Positions 22,168 through 37,537 of a stretch of 64,000 bases of DNA are shown here, piece after piece. Below the pieces are notes generated by a model. That model was not told the origin of the DNA and searched no databases. It saw nothing but the letters and a program-made list of their open reading frames with translations. Each line of letters starts with the position of its first letter. The stretch's first letter is position 1. Position numbers and translations under genes: made by a program. Source of the DNA: a virus; IMG/VR virus record IMGVR_UViG_3300037258_000374, positions 1 through 64,000 of that record; one strand, given 5' to 3'.

Positions 22168-23220
22168 ATGAGTTACACGAAGCTGTTCGGCAGCATCATC
22201 GGATCGACGATCTGGCGTCAGTCTCTCCACGTAAAGGTCGTGTGGATCACCATGCTCGCGATGAAAGATCAGGACGGCATCGTTGAGGTGTCGCTCCCCG
22301 GCCTTGCGCATCTTGCTGGTGTAACCCTGGAGCAGGCCACCGAAGCGATTCGTGATCTGATGGCGCCTGACCCCCATTCGAGCACCAAGGATCGCGAGGG
22401 TCGCCGCATCGAAGAGGTCGATGGCGGGTGGCGAGTTCTGAATCACTTCAAGTACCGGGACAAGGAAGACCAGGACGAGAGACGTCGCAAAGATGCGGAA
22501 AGACAGCAAAGGAAGCGTGGGCGTGGGCGTCACGCCCTGTCACGGACAGTCACGGACAGTCACGGTGTGTCACGCGTGGTCACGCCATCAGATACAGATA
22601 CAGATCCGGAACAGGACTCTATATCGGTTCCGGATCGGGCCTTAAGCCCTTTCAAGCTTCCGGATCCGGATCGTGGGCCCCTGCGAGATCTAGTACAGGC
22701 GCCCCCTCCGGTTGATCGCTCCGCCGCGCGCGACTCCGGCCGCCGCATTCCAGCCGCTCCCGCGCTCCCAGCCGCGTCCGCAGGCCCGGACGCGCCGTTG
22801 CCGCCGGCAGCCCCGCGCACGGCAGCGCGGCTCGTGGCGCTCTTCGTGGAGCTCGTCAACGCGGCTCGCGCGCGGGTGGCCGAGCACCACCGCGTGCAGC
22901 TGCGGCCGATCTACGAGCAGGGGGTAGGAGCCCCCGAGTTGCTGGCGCGCATCCGAGGCGCGCCCGATCCCGAGGCCGAGGTAAGGCACGCGATAGCCGC
23001 CGCCGAGGCGCAGGCGATCAGGGACCCTGACGCGGCGCGCTGGCTGAGCTGGTCGATCGCGGAGCCGAAGGCATGGCGCGCGCATCTCGCCGCCGCGCCA
23101 GCGCGCACGCGCAGCAAAGCCGGACGAAGCGAGCCAGTCCGCCGCTCCGGTGCCGAGGCCTCCGCGGAGGCTGCCGAACTCGGTGTCGACATGAAATCCT
23201 ACGGCGAGGAGGACGACTGA
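22168..23220 (+). CDS. Phage replication initiator
   Basis: YTKLFGSI..STIW N-terminus; internal iterons; followed by a loader ATPase. Confidence 0.75.
   Translation: MSYTKLFGSIIGSTIWRQSLHVKVVWITMLAMKDQDGIVEVSLPGLAHLAGVTLEQATEAIRDLMAPDPHSSTKDREGRRIEEVDGGWRVLNHFKYRDKEDQDERRRKDAERQQRKRGRGRHALSRTVTDSHGVSRVVTPSDTDTDPEQDSISVPDRALSPFKLPDPDRGPLRDLVQAPPPVDRSAARDSGRRIPAAPALPAASAGPDAPLPPAAPRTAARLVALFVELVNAARARVAEHHRVQLRPIYEQGVGAPELLARIRGAPDPEAEVRHAIAAAEAQAIRDPDAARWLSWSIAEPKAWRAHLAAAPARTRSKAGRSEPVRRSGAEASAEAAELGVDMKSYGEEDD
22529..22584. repeat. Six GTCACG-N4 iteron-like repeats (10-bp period), putative origin
   Basis: GTCACG at 22529, 22539, 22549, 22559, 22569 and 22579, followed by GATACA repeats. 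Confidence 0.7.
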
Positions 23221-25018: not shown

Positions 25019-25351
25019 ATGTCAGACGAGAACGGTATGCATCAAGCGATGGCCGATTTGCTTGATGACGACGCGGAGGGCTGGGCACGCCTTCAAGGCT
25101 TGTTCGCGATGCTCGCCCTTCCCCTCATCCACGATAGCGACGGTCGCTTTCGCAAGCGGATCATCGAGGTCGAGATCTCGGCTGGCCGATGGATAGCGAT
25201 CGATGGCGCCGCGCTCGAGATGCAGCGGCTGATCGTGTGGTCGGGGATGAACGGTACGCGCAGCACCTATGAGTTCCGTCGCTCCGAAGGCGTCCCGCAG
25301 TGGCGCGCTCCGAAGGAGGAGTCGCGCGCGAAAGGATTCATCGTCCCGTGA
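25019..25351 (+). CDS. Hypothetical protein
   Basis: ORF. Confidence 0.5.
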   Translation: MSDENGMHQAMADLLDDDAEGWARLQGLFAMLALPLIHDSDGRFRKRIIEVEISAGRWIAIDGAALEMQRLIVWSGMNGTRSTYEFRRSEGVPQWRAPKEESRAKGFIVP

Positions 25352-25893
25352 TCAGGATCGTCTTCCTCGACTTTGACGGCGTGCTGAACAGCACCGACTG
25401 GTACAAGCGGCGCCCGAACAAGGTCGAGTGGGCCGCGCGCCTCGGCATCTCCGAGGAGCAGTTCTGGAACGACCGCTTCGAGTGGGCTCTGCGATCGATC
25501 GACCCGGACGCGGTCGCGGCGCTTAACGATCTCGTGACGAAGACGCAGGCGCGCGTCGTCATCAGCAGCACGTGGCGCACGATGTGGTCGCTGCCGAAGC
25601 TCGAGAAGATACTCCGGTGGTTCGGGTTCGCTCACCATCTCGTCGGCGCGACGCCAGACCAGTGCGAGCAGGTCGATGGTGGACTGTTCGTCGGCGCGCG
25701 CCGCGGCAACGAGATCGCGGCGTGGCTCACCACGATGTTCGGAGCAGTCCGACCGGCAGATGTCGAGTTCGTGATCATCGACGACGACTCCGACATGGGC
25801 CCGCTCTGCGACCGGCTGTTCAACACGAGCCACGATGTCGGCCTCCGCGTGGGCGACGTCGAGGCGATCGCGGCGATGTTCGAGGTCGCGTGA
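25348..25893 (+). CDS. HAD-superfamily phosphatase (RNA-repair-associated HAD type)
   Basis: FLDFDGVLN, ISSTWR, RGNEI, IIDDDSD. Confidence 0.8.
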   Translation: MIRIVFLDFDGVLNSTDWYKRRPNKVEWAARLGISEEQFWNDRFEWALRSIDPDAVAALNDLVTKTQARVVISSTWRTMWSLPKLEKILRWFGFAHHLVGATPDQCEQVDGGLFVGARRGNEIAAWLTTMFGAVRPADVEFVIIDDDSDMGPLCDRLFNTSHDVGLRVGDVEAIAAMFEVA

Positions 25894-29666: not shown

Positions 29667-30232
29667 TCGCAGCGCTGATCCGGTGCCTCGCGCTCGCCGC
29701 CCGCGCCCATGCGGCGTGGCCGGAGTACTCGATCGCGGACGTAACCGCCGCATCCTGCGCGGCGGTTGGCGCCGCCGATCCGGGCGTCCCGGCCGAGCTC
29801 CTGCTCGCAATCGCGCAGCACGAGAGCGACCTGCATCCCAATGCGGTGAGCTGGGTCGCGACCAGCGGCCGAAGGGTGGATATCCTGTGGACGCGCGACC
29901 GCGCGCCGCCTGAAAACAAAGCGTTGGCATGCGGTTACGGGCAGACGATTGTCCACACCAGCCGCGCGTGCGCCGATGTGATCGCCGATCACGGTGGTCT
30001 CGTGACCGCGGAGCACGAGCTCGCCGCGTGGCTGCGGTCGCCGCTGAGCGGCGGTTCTCTGCGTGTCGCGCTCGGCGGCTACGCCGGCGGGATCGCTGGC
30101 GCGCGCGCGGCGCGCGAGGGTATCGACGCTCTGGCGGTCCGCTTCGCCGATCTCTTCATCGCTCGCGCGAGACGGTTAACGATGCAGTCGGTGACTGTCA
30201 TAGTAGGGTCCAATCAGTGGAGGAATCGATGA
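29663..30232 (+). CDS. Lytic transglycosylase-like protein with signal-like N-terminus
   Basis: LLAIAQHES, ACGYGQ, ALGGYAGG; TAGGGT-N7-ATG. Confidence 0.6.
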   Translation: MIAALIRCLALAARAHAAWPEYSIADVTAASCAAVGAADPGVPAELLLAIAQHESDLHPNAVSWVATSGRRVDILWTRDRAPPENKALACGYGQTIVHTSRACADVIADHGGLVTAEHELAAWLRSPLSGGSLRVALGGYAGGIAGARAAREGIDALAVRFADLFIARARRLTMQSVTVIVGSNQWRNR

Positions 30233-30310
30233 TCTAACCGCACCCCGCACCGCGTCGCAGCGCAGCGCTGCGCCCCGCAGCACAGCGCAAAGCAGAGCCC
30301 TAACGGGTCA
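30223..30310 (+). ncRNA. Pentamer-repeat RNA unit 1: GAATCGATGAT-(CRC-NN)x~11-CAGAGCCC(TAAC)GGGTCA
   Basis: Strict 5-nt periodicity; leader and tail shared with units 2 and 3; TAGGGT -10-like box at 30204. Confidence 0.7.
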
Positions 30311-30387
30311 ATCGGCCAGCGAGTCCAGTACCGACATTATGTCCGTCAGCGACTCCAGCGCCCCAAACGACAGCAAGAGGAATCTCA

Positions 30388-30972
30388 ATGCAGACGGTAC
30401 GCGCAGTTCTGAAATCCATCAGTCCCTATTCGCAGTCCAAGTATGTCGACAAAGACGAGCACCCCAAAAACGGCAAGGAGAGCGCCGACGACTACGAGAA
30501 GCGCACGTGGCAAGCGCGAGTGCATCTCGACGACAAAGGCGCTCCGTACATGCCGCCGATGGCGCTGAAGAAGTCGCTCGACGCCGCGAGTGCCTACCTC
30601 GGGAAGATTCCCGGCGAGCGCAATGCGACCTACGTGAAGCGATTCAAGTCTGGGCTGCTCGTTACCGACAACATCCCGCTCCGATCGAACGGCAAGCCGG
30701 TCACGAAGATCGACGACTTCGAGGGCGAGTGGCTATTTCTCGATGCTGGTGGCAAGGCCGGCCAAGGATCAACGCGCGTCAAACGCCGCATGCCTCGGCT
30801 CCGCGAGTGGGAGGTCACAGCAACGATCTATCTGATCGACGAGATCATCACACTCGATGTGCTGCGCCGCGCCCTCGAGGATGCCGGCCGCTTCGTCGGC
30901 GTCGGTCGCTTCCGCCCGCAGGTCGGAGGATTCTACGGTCGCTTCCTCGTCAAATCGCTGGAGGCGGTATGA
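30388..30972 (+). CDS. Stand-alone RAMP/Cas7-like RNA-binding protein
   Basis: N-terminal VLKSISPY strand, PYMPPMALK, C-terminal Gly loop GVGRFRPQVGGFYGRF. Confidence 0.65.
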   Translation: MQTVRAVLKSISPYSQSKYVDKDEHPKNGKESADDYEKRTWQARVHLDDKGAPYMPPMALKKSLDAASAYLGKIPGERNATYVKRFKSGLLVTDNIPLRSNGKPVTKIDDFEGEWLFLDAGGKAGQGSTRVKRRMPRLREWEVTATIYLIDEIITLDVLRRALEDAGRFVGVGRFRPQVGGFYGRFLVKSLEAV

Positions 30973-31463
30973 CGTTCAAGAGCGGTCGCCGGCCGATCGA
31001 AATCGTTTCGAATCGTCAACCTCACAAGCTCGCGATCATCGCGCTCGTGGTCACGACCAAGCCAGGCGATATCATCCACGATCCAGAGATCGATCGCGCA
31101 ACGAACTCCACGCTACAGGTCTGGAGCAGCGCCATGCAGTCTGCTCGGCGCGTGCTCGCCGTGGAGCACGGCATCGAGCTCAAGCGCGAGACGAAGCTCG
31201 GATATCGGCATCTCAAACCGGAAGAGAAGCCTGGCGCGGCAGATCGTCAAATGAACCGCGCGCGCAACCGCGTGAAGACCGCGAAGCGAATCGTCGATTC
31301 GATGACACAGGGCCAGTTTGACGAGCTGACGCCAGCCAATCAGTCGGTGCACGTCCAGACCCGCGCGCGCGTGCTCTTGACGCATGACATGATGTCGCCC
31401 AAGCGTCAGCGCGAGATCGCGGTCGCGGCGAACTCGAAGGAGAGGCCGATGCTGCCCAAGTAG
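30969..31463 (+). CDS. Basic partner protein of the RAMP-like gene
   Basis: ATGA coupling; enclosed by the repeat units. Confidence 0.7.
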   Translation: MTFKSGRRPIEIVSNRQPHKLAIIALVVTTKPGDIIHDPEIDRATNSTLQVWSSAMQSARRVLAVEHGIELKRETKLGYRHLKPEEKPGAADRQMNRARNRVKTAKRIVDSMTQGQFDELTPANQSVHVQTRARVLLTHDMMSPKRQREIAVAANSKERPMLPK

Positions 31464-31537
31464 AATCGACGATGCGCAGCGCTTCGCCTCGCATCGCGTC
31501 GCTCCACAACGCACTGCAGAGCCCGCAAGGGTCACCA
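31463..31537 (+). ncRNA. Pentamer-repeat RNA unit 2
   Basis: GAATCGACGAT-(CRC-NN)x8-9-CAGAGCCCGCAAGGGTCACCA. Confidence 0.7.
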
Positions 31538-31615
31538 ACGATTTCATCGCCACGCGGCGCGTCGCTCCGCATCGCGGCGCATCGCAACGCATCACAGAGC
31601 CCGCAAGGGTCACCA
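31538..31615 (+). ncRNA. Pentamer-repeat RNA unit 3
   Basis: ACGAT-(CRC-NN)x10-CAGAGCCCGCAAGGGTCACCA; 21-bp tail identical to unit 2. Confidence 0.7.
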
Positions 31616-31651
31616 CGCAGCCGACGCCGACAATGAAGTATCGTCGGCGTC

Positions 31652-33863: not shown

Positions 33864-34481
33864 ATGTCACACGCGAAACATGCAGAGCAGATCTACGGCG
33901 CTGTGGAGCCGGGCTCGATCGAGCCGCCCGCGCCGATTCCATTTCGACCAGCGGGCGACCGCATCGTGGTCAAGCAGAACGCGCTCGACCCGATGACGGT
34001 CGGCGGCGTGATCAAACGACCAGACCGCGAGTCGGACTGGACCGCGTTTGGTGTCGTGGTCGCTGTCGGGCCCGGCGAACGCAACAAGCTCGGCGAGCGC
34101 ATCCCGCTCACGCTCAAGGTCGGCGATCAGGTCGTGTACGACTTCCGCCGCGGGCGCGAGGAGCGCGAGGTGCAGCACATCTGCGGTCCTCGGATGGTGA
34201 TCCTGCACGAGCACGAGGTCGCAGCCGTGATCGACGCCGATGACACGTGCGAGCATCCTGCGCTCACGCGGTGCACGAGCTGCGCGACGGTGATCTGCAG
34301 CGACTGCATCGAGCCCGTGCTCGAGCATCGGTTCGCGAGCAGCTACATGCGCGAGAGCGGCGCGACGTGCATGCCATGTCGTGTCGCGACCGAGGATGTC
34401 GACGACACCAACAGGTTCAAGCGCGAATCCGATTGGACCGCGCGGGACGCGGCCGGCGTGCCGGATGGCGGTCCGGCGTGA
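33864..34481 (+). CDS. GroES-like co-chaperonin with C-terminal Cys-rich Zn finger
   Basis: FRPAGDRIVVK, GVVVAVGPG, LKVGDQV. Confidence 0.75.
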   Translation: MSHAKHAEQIYGAVEPGSIEPPAPIPFRPAGDRIVVKQNALDPMTVGGVIKRPDRESDWTAFGVVVAVGPGERNKLGERIPLTLKVGDQVVYDFRRGREEREVQHICGPRMVILHEHEVAAVIDADDTCEHPALTRCTSCATVICSDCIEPVLEHRFASSYMRESGATCMPCRVATEDVDDTNRFKRESDWTARDAAGVPDGGPA

Positions 34482-35862: not shown

Positions 35863-35928
35863 GTCACGCGATGTCACGCGATGTCACGCGATGTCACGCG
35901 ATGTCACGCGACGTCACGCGACGTCACG
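35863..35928. repeat. Seven tandem GTCACGCGAY 10-mers upstream of terS
   Basis: Direct reading. Confidence 0.9.
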
Positions 35929-36056
35929 CCCGTTCCGAACAGGGCTGCGTCCGGCCTCCGCGCTGCTGCGTCGGTCCTGACCTCGCTCCGTAAGTTCGCG
36001 ATTCCTCGTTCGTGGTAGGGTCAGGATATCCGGACCAAGCCGGGTCAGCCGTGTCG

Positions 36057-36535: not shown

Positions 36536-37537
36536 ATGAAGACCCAGCACAACGACATCCCGGCCAAGGCGAAGGTCAACTTCGACCTCGCGCTCGTGAA
36601 GCTCTACAGCGGCAGCCACGGCAACGACATCCCGAGCGGTCCAGACGACTGCGCGGTGTGCTTCAACGAGCTCGTCTCGCTGTTGCCCGGTGGTCATTCG
36701 AAGCCCGAGATGACGGACCGCCCGGACAGCGAATGTCCGGCTCTCAACGAGTTCACGATCTGGCTGAATGATCGCTGGTCCGACGAGGACCGCCAGAAGC
36801 TGATCCAGTTCGCCAACCTCGTGATCGGGACGCGTGGCTCGGACGCGTTGACGAAGGCGCGCCGCGAGTTCCTCGCCGATGGCTCGCTCAAGATCTTCGC
36901 CCAGTTCTTCCGCGAGCTGCCCGGCGCGCCCCAGAACGACGTAGCCGACCGCATCGCGAACCTGCCGTTCAACGATCGCGCGGCGCTACTCCGCATCTTG
37001 TACGATCAGACGAACGAGGCCATCCGCGTGTCACTGCCCAAGCTGCTCCGCGAGCTCGCGCACAAGCCTCGTCCCGACATCGCTGTGCGGCTCGAAGCGC
37101 TCGCGCCGATCATCGACCTCAATACCGCGCGCCTCGCGCGAGATCTTGTTTGGCGTATCAGGGACGAGAACGGTTGGTACGGCTGGACGTGGCGATCGCT
37201 GATCAGGAAGGCGGTCGAGGCGGTCGAGGCGGGCGCGGCGGGCGCGGCGGTCGCGGCGGGCGCGGCGGTCGCGGCGGTCGCGGCGGTCGCGGCGGTCGCG
37301 GCGGTCGCGGCGGTCGAGGCGGGCGCGGCGGTCGAGGCGGTCGCGGCGGTCGCGGCGGTCGCGGCGGTCGCGGCGGTCGAGGCGGGCGCGGCGGTCGAGG
37401 CGGTCGCGGCGGTCGCGGCGGTCGAGGCGGTCGAGGAAGATCTTGCGCCGAAGTATCGCGAGCTGCAGCAGCGCACCGTCGAGCGCACGCTCGCGCTGTT
37501 CAAGGCGGCGATCGAAATCCAAGAGCCGCCCCAATGA
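36536..37537 (+). CDS. Phage protein with N-terminal GSH..C..E..D.P..CP..LND domain and Ala-rich repeat
   Basis: TAGGGT-N7-ATG; 333 aa ORF. Confidence 0.7.
   Translation: MKTQHNDIPAKAKVNFDLALVKLYSGSHGNDIPSGPDDCAVCFNELVSLLPGGHSKPEMTDRPDSECPALNEFTIWLNDRWSDEDRQKLIQFANLVIGTRGSDALTKARREFLADGSLKIFAQFFRELPGAPQNDVADRIANLPFNDRAALLRILYDQTNEAIRVSLPKLLRELAHKPRPDIAVRLEALAPIIDLNTARLARDLVWRIRDENGWYGWTWRSLIRKAVEAVEAGAAGAAVAAGAAVAAVAAVAAVAAVAAVEAGAAVEAVAAVAAVAAVAAVEAGAAVEAVAAVAAVEAVEEDLAPKYRELQQRTVERTLALFKAAIEIQEPPQ
37211..37435. repeat. 9-bp coding tandem repeat (GCGGTCGCG/GCGGTCGAG/GCGGGCGCG), about 25 units
   Basis: Direct reading. Confidence 0.9.

What the first reader, a model, noticed from the sequence alone, without database searches (positions are those of the whole stretch)
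30204..31615. Candidate RNA-guided system: stand-alone RAMP/Cas7-like gene with three (CRC-NN)n pentamer-repeat guide units
Seen in sequence: three non-coding units flank a two-gene cassette. Each has an AYGAT-containing leader (GAATCGAYGAT in units 1 and 2), then a strict 5-nt register of a near-constant triplet (CGC/CAC) alternating with a variable dinucleotide. Each ends in a CAGAG-CCC(N4)GGG-TCA hairpin; the loop is TAAC in unit 1 and GCAA in units 2 and 3, with the stem kept. Variable dinucleotides: unit 1 CG CC AC GT AG AG TG CC AG AG AA; unit 2 (TG) AG TT CT AT GT TC AA AC; unit 3 AT CA GG GT TC AT GG AT AA AT. The 194-aa protein has RAMP-like hallmarks (first strand ending SPY, PYMP..ALK, terminal Gly-rich loop). 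No Cas1/2, nuclease or CRISPR array is nearby. Established: Cas7-type RAMPs polymerise along RNA with a fixed nucleotide step. Inference: one subunit binds each pentamer, the triplet is scaffold, and the NN pairs form a discontinuous guide, probably against competing phages. From memory, a phage system called VIPR with GGY-NN repeats has been reported; I cannot verify this here. This locus would be a variant with a different triplet (CRC, or GYG on the other strand).
Basis: partly seen in the sequence, partly recalled or inferred. Interest (0 to 1): 0.95.

Follow-up and report, generated by a model that had tools for sequence, protein, structure and literature searches.

The report
Soil phage VIPR system, CGC-NN guides
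This is a real VIPR system, the CRISPR-like, phage-borne RNA-guided DNA-silencing system first described in 2026, carried by a 75-kb soil phage whose three guide RNAs use C-G-C in place of the published G-G-Y scaffold letters; it is a tidy new member of a known family, and its targets were not found.

Summary

**What is there**
- Three 5-nt-periodic CGC/NN tracts lie at window 30222-30310, 31463-31534 and 31536-31612 on the + strand. Each ends in CAGAGCCC-N4-GGGTCA.
- They flank two translationally coupled genes.
- Tracts this periodic are nearly absent from composition-matched simulations.

**The proteins**
- The 194-aa protein matches the solved SUSP1 Vipr protein (PDB 36pp; E 4.5e-5, profile 5.9e-10).
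- It models confidently (pLDDT 88) as a Cas7/Csm3-type RAMP (Z 9.9).
- The 164-aa partner looks winged-helix-like, as published vap genes do.

**Context and relatives**
- The host contig is a 74.8-kb tailed phage from a soil metagenome.
- 86 of 98 related loci carry adjacent pentamer tracts. The fixed triplet varies: CGC 31, GGC 22, GAC 16, CTC 6, CAC 3.
- The nearest full relative (67% Vipr identity) keeps the scaffold and tail, but all its NN pairs differ.

**Novelty**
- VIPR is published (bioRxiv 2026.04.26.720920 and .720927, 2026.10.15.759431).
- Non-GGY scaffolds are also in print (YNNNG; GAC/NN and CAC/NN in 2026.10.21.760802).
- This scan has already noted VIPR-like loci in at least 425 other genomes.

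No natural target was found and no expression data exist. Verdict: new member of a known kind, modest interest.

The parts
30222..30310 (+). vrRNA 1 (candidate). Leader GGAATCGATGAT overlaps the stop codon of the upstream gene. About 12 CGC/CAC-NN pentamers lie at 30236-30295. The tail CAGAGCCC-TAAC-GGGTCA is at 30293-30310.
   Evidence: Sequence; periodicity scan; register anchored on the tail.
30388..30972 (+). vipr: a 194-aa single-RRM RAMP (Cas7-like) with a thumb hairpin (strands 112-119 and 130-138) and a G-loop (170-186). GAGGA lies 7 nt before the ATG.
   Evidence: PDB 36pp_D 'SUSP1 Vipr protein', E 4.5e-5, profile 5.9e-10. phrog_4652, E 3.9e-16. AF2 pLDDT 88. Csm3/Cas7 top fold hits.
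30969..31463 (+). vap-like accessory gene, 164 aa. Its ATG overlaps the vipr stop (ATGA), and GGAGG lies upstream. The N-terminal part is probably winged-helix-like.
   Evidence: ORF list. No Pfam, PDB or PADLOC hit. Homologous to the gene after vipr in L037 (28% identity, E 4e-12). Atlas nearest clusters are 62-100% viral, with weaker structural likeness (TM 0.33-0.47) to GntR, HTH_11, ScpB and PuR_N winged helices.
31463..31534 (+). vrRNA 2 (candidate). The leader GAATCGACGAT starts at the last base of the vap stop codon. It has 9-10 pentamers. The tail CAGAGCCC-GCAA-GGGTCA is at 31517-31534.
31536..31612 (+). vrRNA 3 (candidate). Leader CAACGATTTCAT, 10-11 pentamers, tail CAGAGCCC-GCAA-GGGTCA at 31595-31612.
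31623..31651 (+). A 9-bp perfect hairpin (GACGCCGAC ... GTCGGCGTC) directly after the array and directly before the next ORF's ATG (31652). It may be a terminator or a processing barrier. It has no U tract.
   Evidence: Fold: -17.2 kcal/mol, z -2.8, 2 of 200 shuffles as good. The terminator scan did not call it.

Best explanation
This is a phage-encoded VIPR (Viral Interference Programmable Repeat) system. It consists of vipr (30388-30972), a vap-like accessory gene (30969-31463) and three vrRNA genes, one upstream and two downstream, all on the + strand.

By homology with the SUSP1 system, the likely mechanism is as follows.
1. Each vrRNA (about 72-89 nt) is coated by Vipr protomers, one per pentamer.
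2. The protomers sequester the fixed triplet, here C1-G2-C3 rather than G1-G2-Y3.
3. The two variable bases of each repeat are exposed.
4. The exposed NN pairs read double-stranded DNA, skipping one base after each pair. This covers about 7-10 informative NN, a footprint of roughly 21-30 bp.
5. The bound filament silences transcription of a competing phage, prophage or satellite. The winged-helix-like Vap assists.

The cassette contains no nuclease, so repression rather than cleavage is expected.

Shown here: the anatomy, the protein's homology and fold, the phage context, tract co-occurrence across relatives, and NN hypervariability beside a constant scaffold and tail.

Inferred from the literature only: transcription and processing, one protomer per repeat, the 1-nt skip rule, silencing, and the role of Vap.
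For: - **Protein homology:** sequence match to the solved SUSP1 Vipr protein.
- **Protein fold:** confident model (pLDDT 88, pTM 0.81), with nearest solved folds all Cas7-family RAMPs.
- **Not a CRISPR locus:** no Pfam, NCBIfam or PADLOC cas model hits the protein. No CRISPR-like array is in the window.
- **Published architecture:** the locus layout is vrRNA, vipr, vap, then a vrRNA array. Each unit has 10-13 repeats, within the published 9-16.
- **Tract then tail:** in 7 units from two phages, the tail and the last repeats (AG, then mostly AA) are constant. Repeats -3 to -9 carry unrelated NN.
- **Relatives:** 86 of 98 loci have tracts beside the gene. In GGC-type relatives the strand of vipr reads GGC-NN, the published sense. 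Nearly all triplets end in a pyrimidine, as the Y3 pocket of the SUSP1 structure requires.
- **Scaffold fit:** C-NN-CG fits the YNNNG alternative in the discovery paper's Methods.
- **Viral context:** the contig encodes TerL, portal, protease, major head protein and tail sheath. It is one 74.8-kb contig of 65% GC from a soil metagenome.
- **No self-targeting:** no site in the phage reaches 80% NN match, as reported for published systems.
- **Single-stranded tracts:** they do not fold better than shuffles, as expected for a protein-bound guide.
Against: - No expression or binding data exist for this locus. No RNA run holds it.
- No sigma-70-like promoter lies next to any unit.
- No natural target was found. 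Exact 1-nt-skip scans of IMG/VR gave nothing for units 1 and 3. For unit 2 they gave one hit in a 40%-GC contig, which is the number expected by chance for 18 fixed bases.
- Nothing turned up in the related viral records with up to 3 mismatches, tried for units 1 and 3 only, or in any fetched locus.
- Similarity to SUSP1 Vipr is distant and confined to the C-terminal half.
- Two SUSP1 residues that contact the guanines are not conserved (D177 aligns with R174, R138 with M135). The recognition details and the skip rule cannot simply be assumed for a CGC scaffold.
Confidence: 0.9

Rival explanations
1. Same machinery, different rule. The Vipr-like protein coats the CGC/NN RNAs, but this divergent subfamily reads its target with another skip length, or reads RNA rather than dsDNA. 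The published decoding would then not apply.
For: The 1-nt-skip search found no target. The guanine-contacting residues of SUSP1 Vipr are replaced. The skip rule has been tested experimentally only for GGY systems.
Against: The thumb, G-loop and helical parts that set the geometry are all present in a confident model. Failing to find targets is expected for a soil phage whose host and rivals are barely sampled. Skip lengths 0, 2 and 3 gave no better matches than 1.
Confidence: 0.06
2. A relic. The cassette was inherited or captured but is no longer used, and the tracts are decaying.
For: No targets and no expression data. Unit 1 has a non-GNRA loop (TAAC) and degenerate first and last triplets (AAC, AGC).
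Against: Both ORFs are intact, translationally coupled and preceded by Shine-Dalgarno motifs. Vipr, at 64-67% identity, is the best-conserved protein shared with the related phage, whose structural proteins are 29-55% identical. Scaffold triplets are 80-97% uniform.
Confidence: 0.03
3. The tracts are not RNA guides. They would instead be DNA-level elements (protein-binding iterons, recombination or phase-variation sites) or coding sequence that happens to sit beside a RAMP-fold gene.
For: ORFs overlap units 2 and 3 on both strands (for example 31472-31636 +). The phage has other short tandem repeats.
Against: A 5-nt period is incompatible with coding constraint. The link between tracts and this protein family holds in 86 of 98 loci from many phyla. 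The same kind of tract has been shown to be an RNA bound by Vipr in SUSP1.
Confidence: 0.01

Closest known systems
Type II VIPR system of Escherichia phage SUSP1 and the Pseudomonas fulva prophage (bioRxiv 10.64898/2026.04.26.720920, .720927 and 2026.10.15.759431; PDB 36pp)
   Same: A small single-RRM RAMP homologous in sequence. A two-gene vipr-vap operon. One vrRNA upstream and an array downstream. About 10-13 pentamer repeats with a fixed triplet and hypervariable NN. A constant 3' tail. Phage-borne. No nuclease, cas genes or CRISPR array. No self-target.
   Different: The scaffold is C-G-C, not G-G-Y; position 1 differs, while G2 and Y3 are kept. The tail is a 4-bp hairpin with a tetraloop rather than the pseudoknot described for the SUSP1 clade. 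The Vipr protein is only distantly related (E 4.5e-5, C-terminal half), with D177 replaced by R and R138 by M. The Vap has no detectable sequence match to anything solved. The host and targets are unknown. The VIPR type (I-VII) could not be assigned because the papers' tables are not held.
Non-canonical VIPR arrays: the YNNNG, NNNGG and NNNNG repeats in the discovery paper's Methods, and the GAC/NN, CAC/NN, WGT/NN and TGH/NN clusters in bioRxiv 10.64898/2026.10.21.760802
   Same: Five-nt units with a non-GGY fixed triplet next to a Vipr-like fold. C-NN-CG fits YNNNG. GAC and CAC scaffolds were also seen here among relatives.
   Different: CGC/NN is not named in the text of any of the four preprints held, and their figures and tables could not be read. 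In my sample of relatives of this protein, CGC is the commonest scaffold (31 of 86 loci with tracts).
Cas7 family RAMPs of class 1 CRISPR-Cas (Csm3, Cmr4, type VII Cas7, Csf2)
   Same: RRM core, thumb hairpin and glycine-rich loop. These are the best structural matches (Z 8-10). They polymerise along a guide RNA with a fixed step.
   Different: No CRISPR array, no other cas genes, and no cas HMM match. The step is 5 nt rather than 6, and the guide is discontinuous rather than contiguous. The system is viral rather than cellular.

Membership tests
VIPR system | Vipr protein: a small (about 20 kDa) RAMP with a single RRM core, thumb and G-loop, homologous to characterised Vipr proteins | tested here: met
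   194 aa. PDB 36pp_D SUSP1 Vipr, E 4.5e-5, profile E 5.9e-10. Model pLDDT 88 with thumb strands 112-119 and 130-138 and G-loop 170-186. Csm3/Cas7 top hits.
VIPR system | vrRNA genes: 9-16 tandem pentamers in which a fixed triplet alternates with a hypervariable NN | tested here: met
   Three tracts of 10-13 pentamers. Triplet columns are 88, 80 and 97% uniform; NN columns are 53 and 36%. Far beyond chance.
VIPR system | Canonical scaffold GGY (YNNGG) | tested here: not met
   The scaffold is CGC (sometimes CAC). It does fit the 'related consensus' YNNNG that the discovery paper accepts for some types. This argues against the canonical subtype, not against the family.
VIPR system | Invariant 3' tail after the repeat tract | tested here: met
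   CAGAGCCC-N4-GGGTCA occurs in all 3 units here and in all 4 units of L037 (67% Vipr identity). Loops are TAAC, GCAA or GAAA. It is a hairpin, not the SUSP1-clade pseudoknot. No covariation is available because the stem is invariant.
VIPR system | NN hypervariable between related loci while scaffold and tail are kept | tested here: met
   The window and L037 units share no guide. Tracts occur at 86 of 98 related loci.
VIPR system | Minimal locus (vipr plus vap) without cas genes or a CRISPR array | tested here: met
   Two coupled ORFs. No cas hit in PADLOC, Pfam or NCBIfam. No CRISPR-like array. Neighbouring genes are ordinary phage genes.
VIPR system | Mostly virus- or provirus-borne | tested here: met
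   A 74.8-kb contig with TerL, portal, protease, major head protein and sheath.
VIPR system | vrRNAs are expressed as roughly 100-nt RNAs and co-purify with Vipr | not testable with these tools
   No RNA run holds the stretch.
VIPR system | NN code matches natural dsDNA targets under the 1-nt skip rule (at least 80% NN), with no self-target | tested here: inconclusive
   No self-target: best matches 16/22, 13/18 and 14/20. No credible target in IMG/VR by exact scans, in related viral records (units 1 and 3 only) or in fetched loci. Mismatch-tolerant searches of large collections were not possible.
CRISPR-Cas class 1 (type III, IV or VII Cas7) | Cas7-fold backbone subunit | tested here: met
   Z 9.9 to Csm3 6ae2_B; Foldseek probability 1.0.
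CRISPR-Cas class 1 (type III, IV or VII Cas7) | CRISPR array of 24-40-nt repeats with spacers, plus other cas genes (Cas5, Cas6, Cas10, large or small subunits) | tested here: not met
   No such array. No cas profile hit for the cassette or its neighbours.

The most novel reading that the evidence does not exclude
CGC/NN may be a scaffold class that Vipr proteins of this lineage tell apart from GGC, GAC and CTC scaffolds. On the Vipr tree the scaffold changes repeatedly between close relatives. Scaffold switching could therefore be a way to keep co-infecting VIPR systems, or satellite-borne decoy guides, from loading onto a rival's protein. It could also give a set of mutually orthogonal Vipr-scaffold pairs for multiplexed DNA targeting. 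Alongside this, the cassette looks mobile among related soil myophages: it sits at a different genomic site in the relative, and Vipr is better conserved than the virion proteins.
Probability: 0.3. Interest if true: 0.55.

Novelty: new member of a known kind. Interest (0 to 1): 0.3.

Why it matters
- It extends VIPR to an uncultured high-GC soil myophage.
- It documents, with sequence-level controls, that a C-G-C scaffold is common among relatives of this Vipr lineage.
- It gives a compact test case (194-aa protein, 72-89-nt guides, simple hairpin tail) for asking how Vipr proteins choose their scaffold triplet, and whether scaffolds are orthogonal.
- It changes no concept. The system, its code and the existence of non-canonical scaffolds are already in print, and this scan has met VIPR loci in hundreds of genomes.

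Tried and rejected
1. **Unaligned structure prediction.** Folding the protein without an alignment gave a useless model (pLDDT 36). Only the model built with an alignment was used.
2. **D177-to-R174 hypothesis.** I asked whether replacing the G1-contacting Asp of SUSP1 (D177) by R174 explains C at scaffold position 1. Rejected: GGC-type relatives also carry R174 (19/19).
   - R174 tracks G at position 2 (46/47 xGC loci against 4/21 GAC, CTC and CAC loci).
   - Residue 119 is P in GGC, GAC and CTC loci but N or D in most CGC loci.
   - Only 2 phylogenetically independent pairs lie on supported branches, so neither association is significant. Four CGC loci keep P119.
3. **Target search.**
   - Own genome at skip 0-3.
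   - Five exact 1-nt-skip scans of IMG/VR. The single hit, L099, is a 40%-GC contig and is taken as chance.
   - Five related viral records with up to 3 mismatches, units 1 and 3 only.
   - All fetched loci.
   - The reverse test: 247 guides from relatives against this phage, where skip 1 was no better than skips 0, 2 and 3.
4. **More loci with this tail.** An IMG/VR scan for the tail found only the L037/L100 contig.
5. **Expression.** No RNA holder is listed. The one DNA holder is probably the source sample.
6. The best TerL matches are only 30-32% identical, including Myxococcus phage Mx4.
7. **Other blanks.** Rfam has no family for the units. The discovery paper's supplementary tables are not held, so the VIPR type could not be assigned and I could not check whether this lineage is among its 667 loci.
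8. **Strand caveat.** The '+' label printed is uninformative, because a periodic tract scores the same on both strands. The strand assignment rests instead on tail position, on GGC-type relatives reading GGC on the gene strand, and on the pyrimidine at position 3.
Full report
**Observation.**
Three + strand units lie at 30222-30310, 31463-31534 and 31536-31612. Each has three parts:
- a short leader containing CGAT (GAATCGATGAT, GAATCGACGAT, CAACGATTTCAT);
- 10-13 pentamers in which CGC (sometimes CAC) alternates with a variable dinucleotide;
- the tail CAGAGCCC-N4-GGGTCA, with loop TAAC in unit 1 and GCAA in units 2 and 3.

A scan for 8 consecutive pentamers with three near-constant columns finds only these three tracts in the 64 kb, plus an unrelated 10-nt tandem repeat at 35883-35930. 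The real sequence has 67 qualifying windows (maximum 24/24). Of 30 first-order Markov simulations, 28 had none and two had 3-6 at the threshold.

The units flank two ORFs:
- 30388-30972 (194 aa), with GAGGA upstream;
- 30969-31463 (164 aa), with GGAGG upstream and a start that overlaps the first ORF's stop as ATGA.

**The protein.**
Pfam, NCBIfam and PADLOC give nothing for the 194-aa protein. PHROGs gives phrog_4652, of unknown function, at E 3.9e-16.

Against all PDB sequences, the only significant hit is 36pp_D, 'SUSP1 Vipr protein'. The E-value is 4.5e-5 over residues 126-183. With a 22-sequence profile it rises to 5.9e-10 over residues 84-189.

AlphaFold2 with that alignment gives pLDDT 88 and pTM 0.81. 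The model shows a beta-alpha-beta core, a beta-hairpin at 112-138 (the thumb) and a low-confidence glycine-rich loop at 170-186.
- Foldseek's best PDB matches are all Csm3 or Cas7 subunits of type III and type VII complexes, at probability 1.0.
- An exhaustive VIA-align pass over 48,161 chains puts Csm3 6ae2_B first (Z 9.9, rmsd 2.8, 140 residues). The first 23 rows are all CRISPR RAMPs.

**The literature.**
- The discovery preprint (10.64898/2026.04.26.720920) describes phage-borne two-gene loci (vipr plus vap) flanked by roughly 100-nt vrRNAs. These have 9-16 YNNGG repeats followed by an invariant tail. In SUSP1, one vrRNA lies upstream and three lie downstream.
- In that system the NN pairs read dsDNA with a one-base skip, without a PAM, and silence transcription of rival phages and satellites.
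- Seven types are defined, and alternative repeat consensuses NNNGG, YNNNG and NNNNG are mentioned.
- The structural preprint (.720927) shows one protomer per repeat. G1 is read by H17 and D177. G2 is held by R138 and W178. Y3 sits in a pocket that excludes purines.
- A third preprint shows the system at work in phage-satellite competition.
- A fourth (2026.10.21.760802) reports 21 clusters with non-canonical triplets such as GAC/NN and CAC/NN next to Vipr-like folds.

CGC is not named in the text of any of these. However, C-NN-CG fits YNNNG exactly: position 1 is free, while G2 and Y3 are kept.

**Context.**
The window is part of a single 74.8-kb contig of 65% GC. It encodes a large terminase, portal, head protease, major head protein and tail sheath. 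The only public run holding it is a soil metagenome. This is a tailed phage genome, as expected for VIPR.

The genes around the cassette are ordinary phage genes:
- an SNF2 helicase;
- a weak SLT-like protein;
- a HAD-type protein;
- a weak HNH match;
- a Cpn10-domain protein.

There is no CRISPR-like array. No sigma-70-like promoter lies next to the units. The cassette sits inside a long co-directional gene block, so the vrRNAs may be cut from longer transcripts. This is an inference. A strong hairpin at 31623-31651 (-17.2 kcal/mol, z -2.8) closes the array just before the next ATG.

**Relatives.**
- A word-indexed search finds 334 homologues.
- A full profile scan of 1.84 billion cluster representatives finds 3,667 clusters at E up to 1e-3, and 551 at 1e-30.
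- I fetched 98 loci from genomes of many phyla, from IMG/VR and from metagenomes.
- 86 of them have 5-nt-periodic tracts within 1.5 kb upstream or 2.5 kb downstream of the gene.

The fixed triplet, read on the gene's strand, is distributed as follows:

| Triplet | Loci |
|---|---|
| CGC | 31 |
| GGC | 22 |
| GAC | 16 |
| CTC (cyanobacteria) | 6 |
| CAC | 3 |
| Others (GTC, GTT, GAT, ATT, and so on) | singles |

Nearly all triplets end in a pyrimidine.

In GGC-type relatives the gene strand reads GGC-NN, the published RNA sense. Together with the tail position, this fixes the + strand for the CGC units here. The strand label printed is itself uninformative, because periodicity is strand-symmetric.

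On a maximum-likelihood tree of 76 Vipr proteins, the scaffold is clustered but changes repeatedly. CGC needs 9 changes on the best tree, and at least 3 are forced by well-supported branches.

**The closest full relative.**
IMG/VR contig UViG_3300047160_006225 (L037/L100) encodes a Vipr 67% identical, followed by a gene 28% identical to the vap here (E 4e-12). Four units follow, each with the same CGC scaffold and the same CAGAGCCC-GAAA-GGGTCA tail.

Aligned backwards from the tail across all seven units:
- the last repeat always carries AG;
- each of the two repeats before it carries AA in 4 of 7 units;
- repeats -3 to -9 carry unrelated NN.

This is the published pattern of a hypervariable guide capped by a constant end. 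It also suggests that only about 7-10 NN per unit are informative.

That contig is a related myophage whose structural proteins are 29-55% identical. There the cassette sits directly beside the head genes rather than in the early region. Vipr is the best-conserved shared protein, at 64% in the ORF-based comparison. This suggests the cassette moves between related phages.

**The accessory gene.**
The 164-aa protein has no Pfam, PDB or PADLOC match. It has only two close homologues in 5.8 billion proteins.
- The ESM Atlas places it among viral (62-100%) hypothetical-protein clusters.
- Its residues 14-88 resemble winged-helix domains (GntR, HTH_11, ScpB, PuR_N) at TM 0.33-0.47.

This is a lead, and it is consistent with the published WH-like and HTH-like Vaps.

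**Targets.**
- No site in the phage itself reaches 80% NN match at any skip length. The best were 16/22, 13/18 and 14/20, matching the published absence of self-targets.
- Exact 1-nt-skip scans of IMG/VR found nothing for units 1 and 3, with or without the end repeats.
- Unit 2 gave one hit in a 40%-GC contig, which I take as chance for 18 fixed bases.
- Related viral records searched with up to 3 mismatches, for units 1 and 3 only, gave nothing. Neither did any fetched locus.
- 247 guides parsed from relatives do not match this phage better at skip 1 than at skips 0, 2 or 3.

The targets are therefore unknown. Given how poorly soil phages and their hosts are sampled, and that only exact matching was possible at scale, this is uninformative rather than negative.

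**Recognition residues.**

| SUSP1 residue | Aligned residue here | Role in SUSP1 |
|---|---|---|
| D177 | R174 | reads G1 |
| W178 | F175 | stacks on G2 |
| R179 | R176 | contacts Y3 |
| C173 | V170 | contacts Y3 |
| R138 | M135 | holds G2 |

The alignment is and the roles. The aromatic residue that stacks on G2 and the Arg that contacts Y3 are kept, while the Asp that reads G1 is not.

I tested whether this swap explains C1. It does not, because GGC-type relatives also have R174.
- R174 goes with G at position 2.
- Residue 119 (P against N or D) goes with G against C at position 1.
- Too few independent contrasts exist for either association to count.

**Verdict.**
The locus is a genuine VIPR system with a CGC/NN scaffold. 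The family, its code and the existence of non-canonical scaffolds were published in 2026. This scan has already noted VIPR-like loci in at least 425 other genomes.

This is a new member of a known kind. Its modest added value is the CGC scaffold documented across a lineage, a simple hairpin tail, and hints of cassette mobility and scaffold switching.

Noticed in passing
L100:11211-12704 (IMGVR_UViG_3300047160_006225), compared with window 30222-31612: In a related myophage the vipr-vap-vrRNA cassette sits directly beside the head genes, not in the early region. Vipr (64% identity in this comparison) is better conserved than any shared virion protein (29-55%). This suggests the cassette moves between related phages.
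   Followed up: partly
L001-L098, alignment of 76 Vipr proteins; window residues 119 and 174: The scaffold triplet changes repeatedly on the Vipr tree. Residue 174 is R in 46/47 xGC loci but in only 4/21 GAC, CTC and CAC loci. Residue 119 is P in GGC, GAC and CTC loci but N or D in most CGC loci. Only 2 independent contrasts lie on supported branches, so this is a lead only.
   Followed up: partly
L045, L046, L084, L089, L097: Some CGC/NN relatives carry very long arrays: 11-16 tracts totalling 600-840 nt beside one vipr gene.
   Followed up: no
L101:1581-1899 (Pseudomonas phage vB_Pae_LESphi2, OQ594955.1): This phage, recorded with host P. aeruginosa LESB58, has a Vipr homologue (P21_9, 29% identity to the one here). 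Three GGC/NN tracts lie just upstream, between the genes annotated as cI repressor and sigma factor and two hypothetical genes. It is probably part of the Pseudomonas VIPR clade already published.
   Followed up: partly
window 35863-35929 and 22539-22565: Ten-nt tandem repeats share a GTCACG core: GTCACGCGAT x6.7 and GTCACGGACA x2.7. They are iteron-like, the first in non-coding DNA ahead of the packaging genes. An earlier first-reader note also flagged them.
   Followed up: no
window 37210-37433: A 9-nt repeat, GGCGGTCGC x24.9 (91% matches), lies inside ORF 36536-37537. It would encode a long tripeptide repeat in a protein with no Pfam match.
   Followed up: no
window 31623-31651: A perfect 9-bp hairpin without a U tract sits between the last vrRNA tail and the next ORF's ATG (z -2.8). 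It may be a terminator or a processing barrier for the array.
   Followed up: partly
window 33864-34481 and 25300-25893: The phage encodes a 205-aa protein with a Cpn10 (GroES) domain in residues 27-123 plus a C-terminal extension. It also encodes a HAD_SAK_2 domain protein, a family found in 'Swiss Army Knife' RNA-repair proteins.
   Followed up: no
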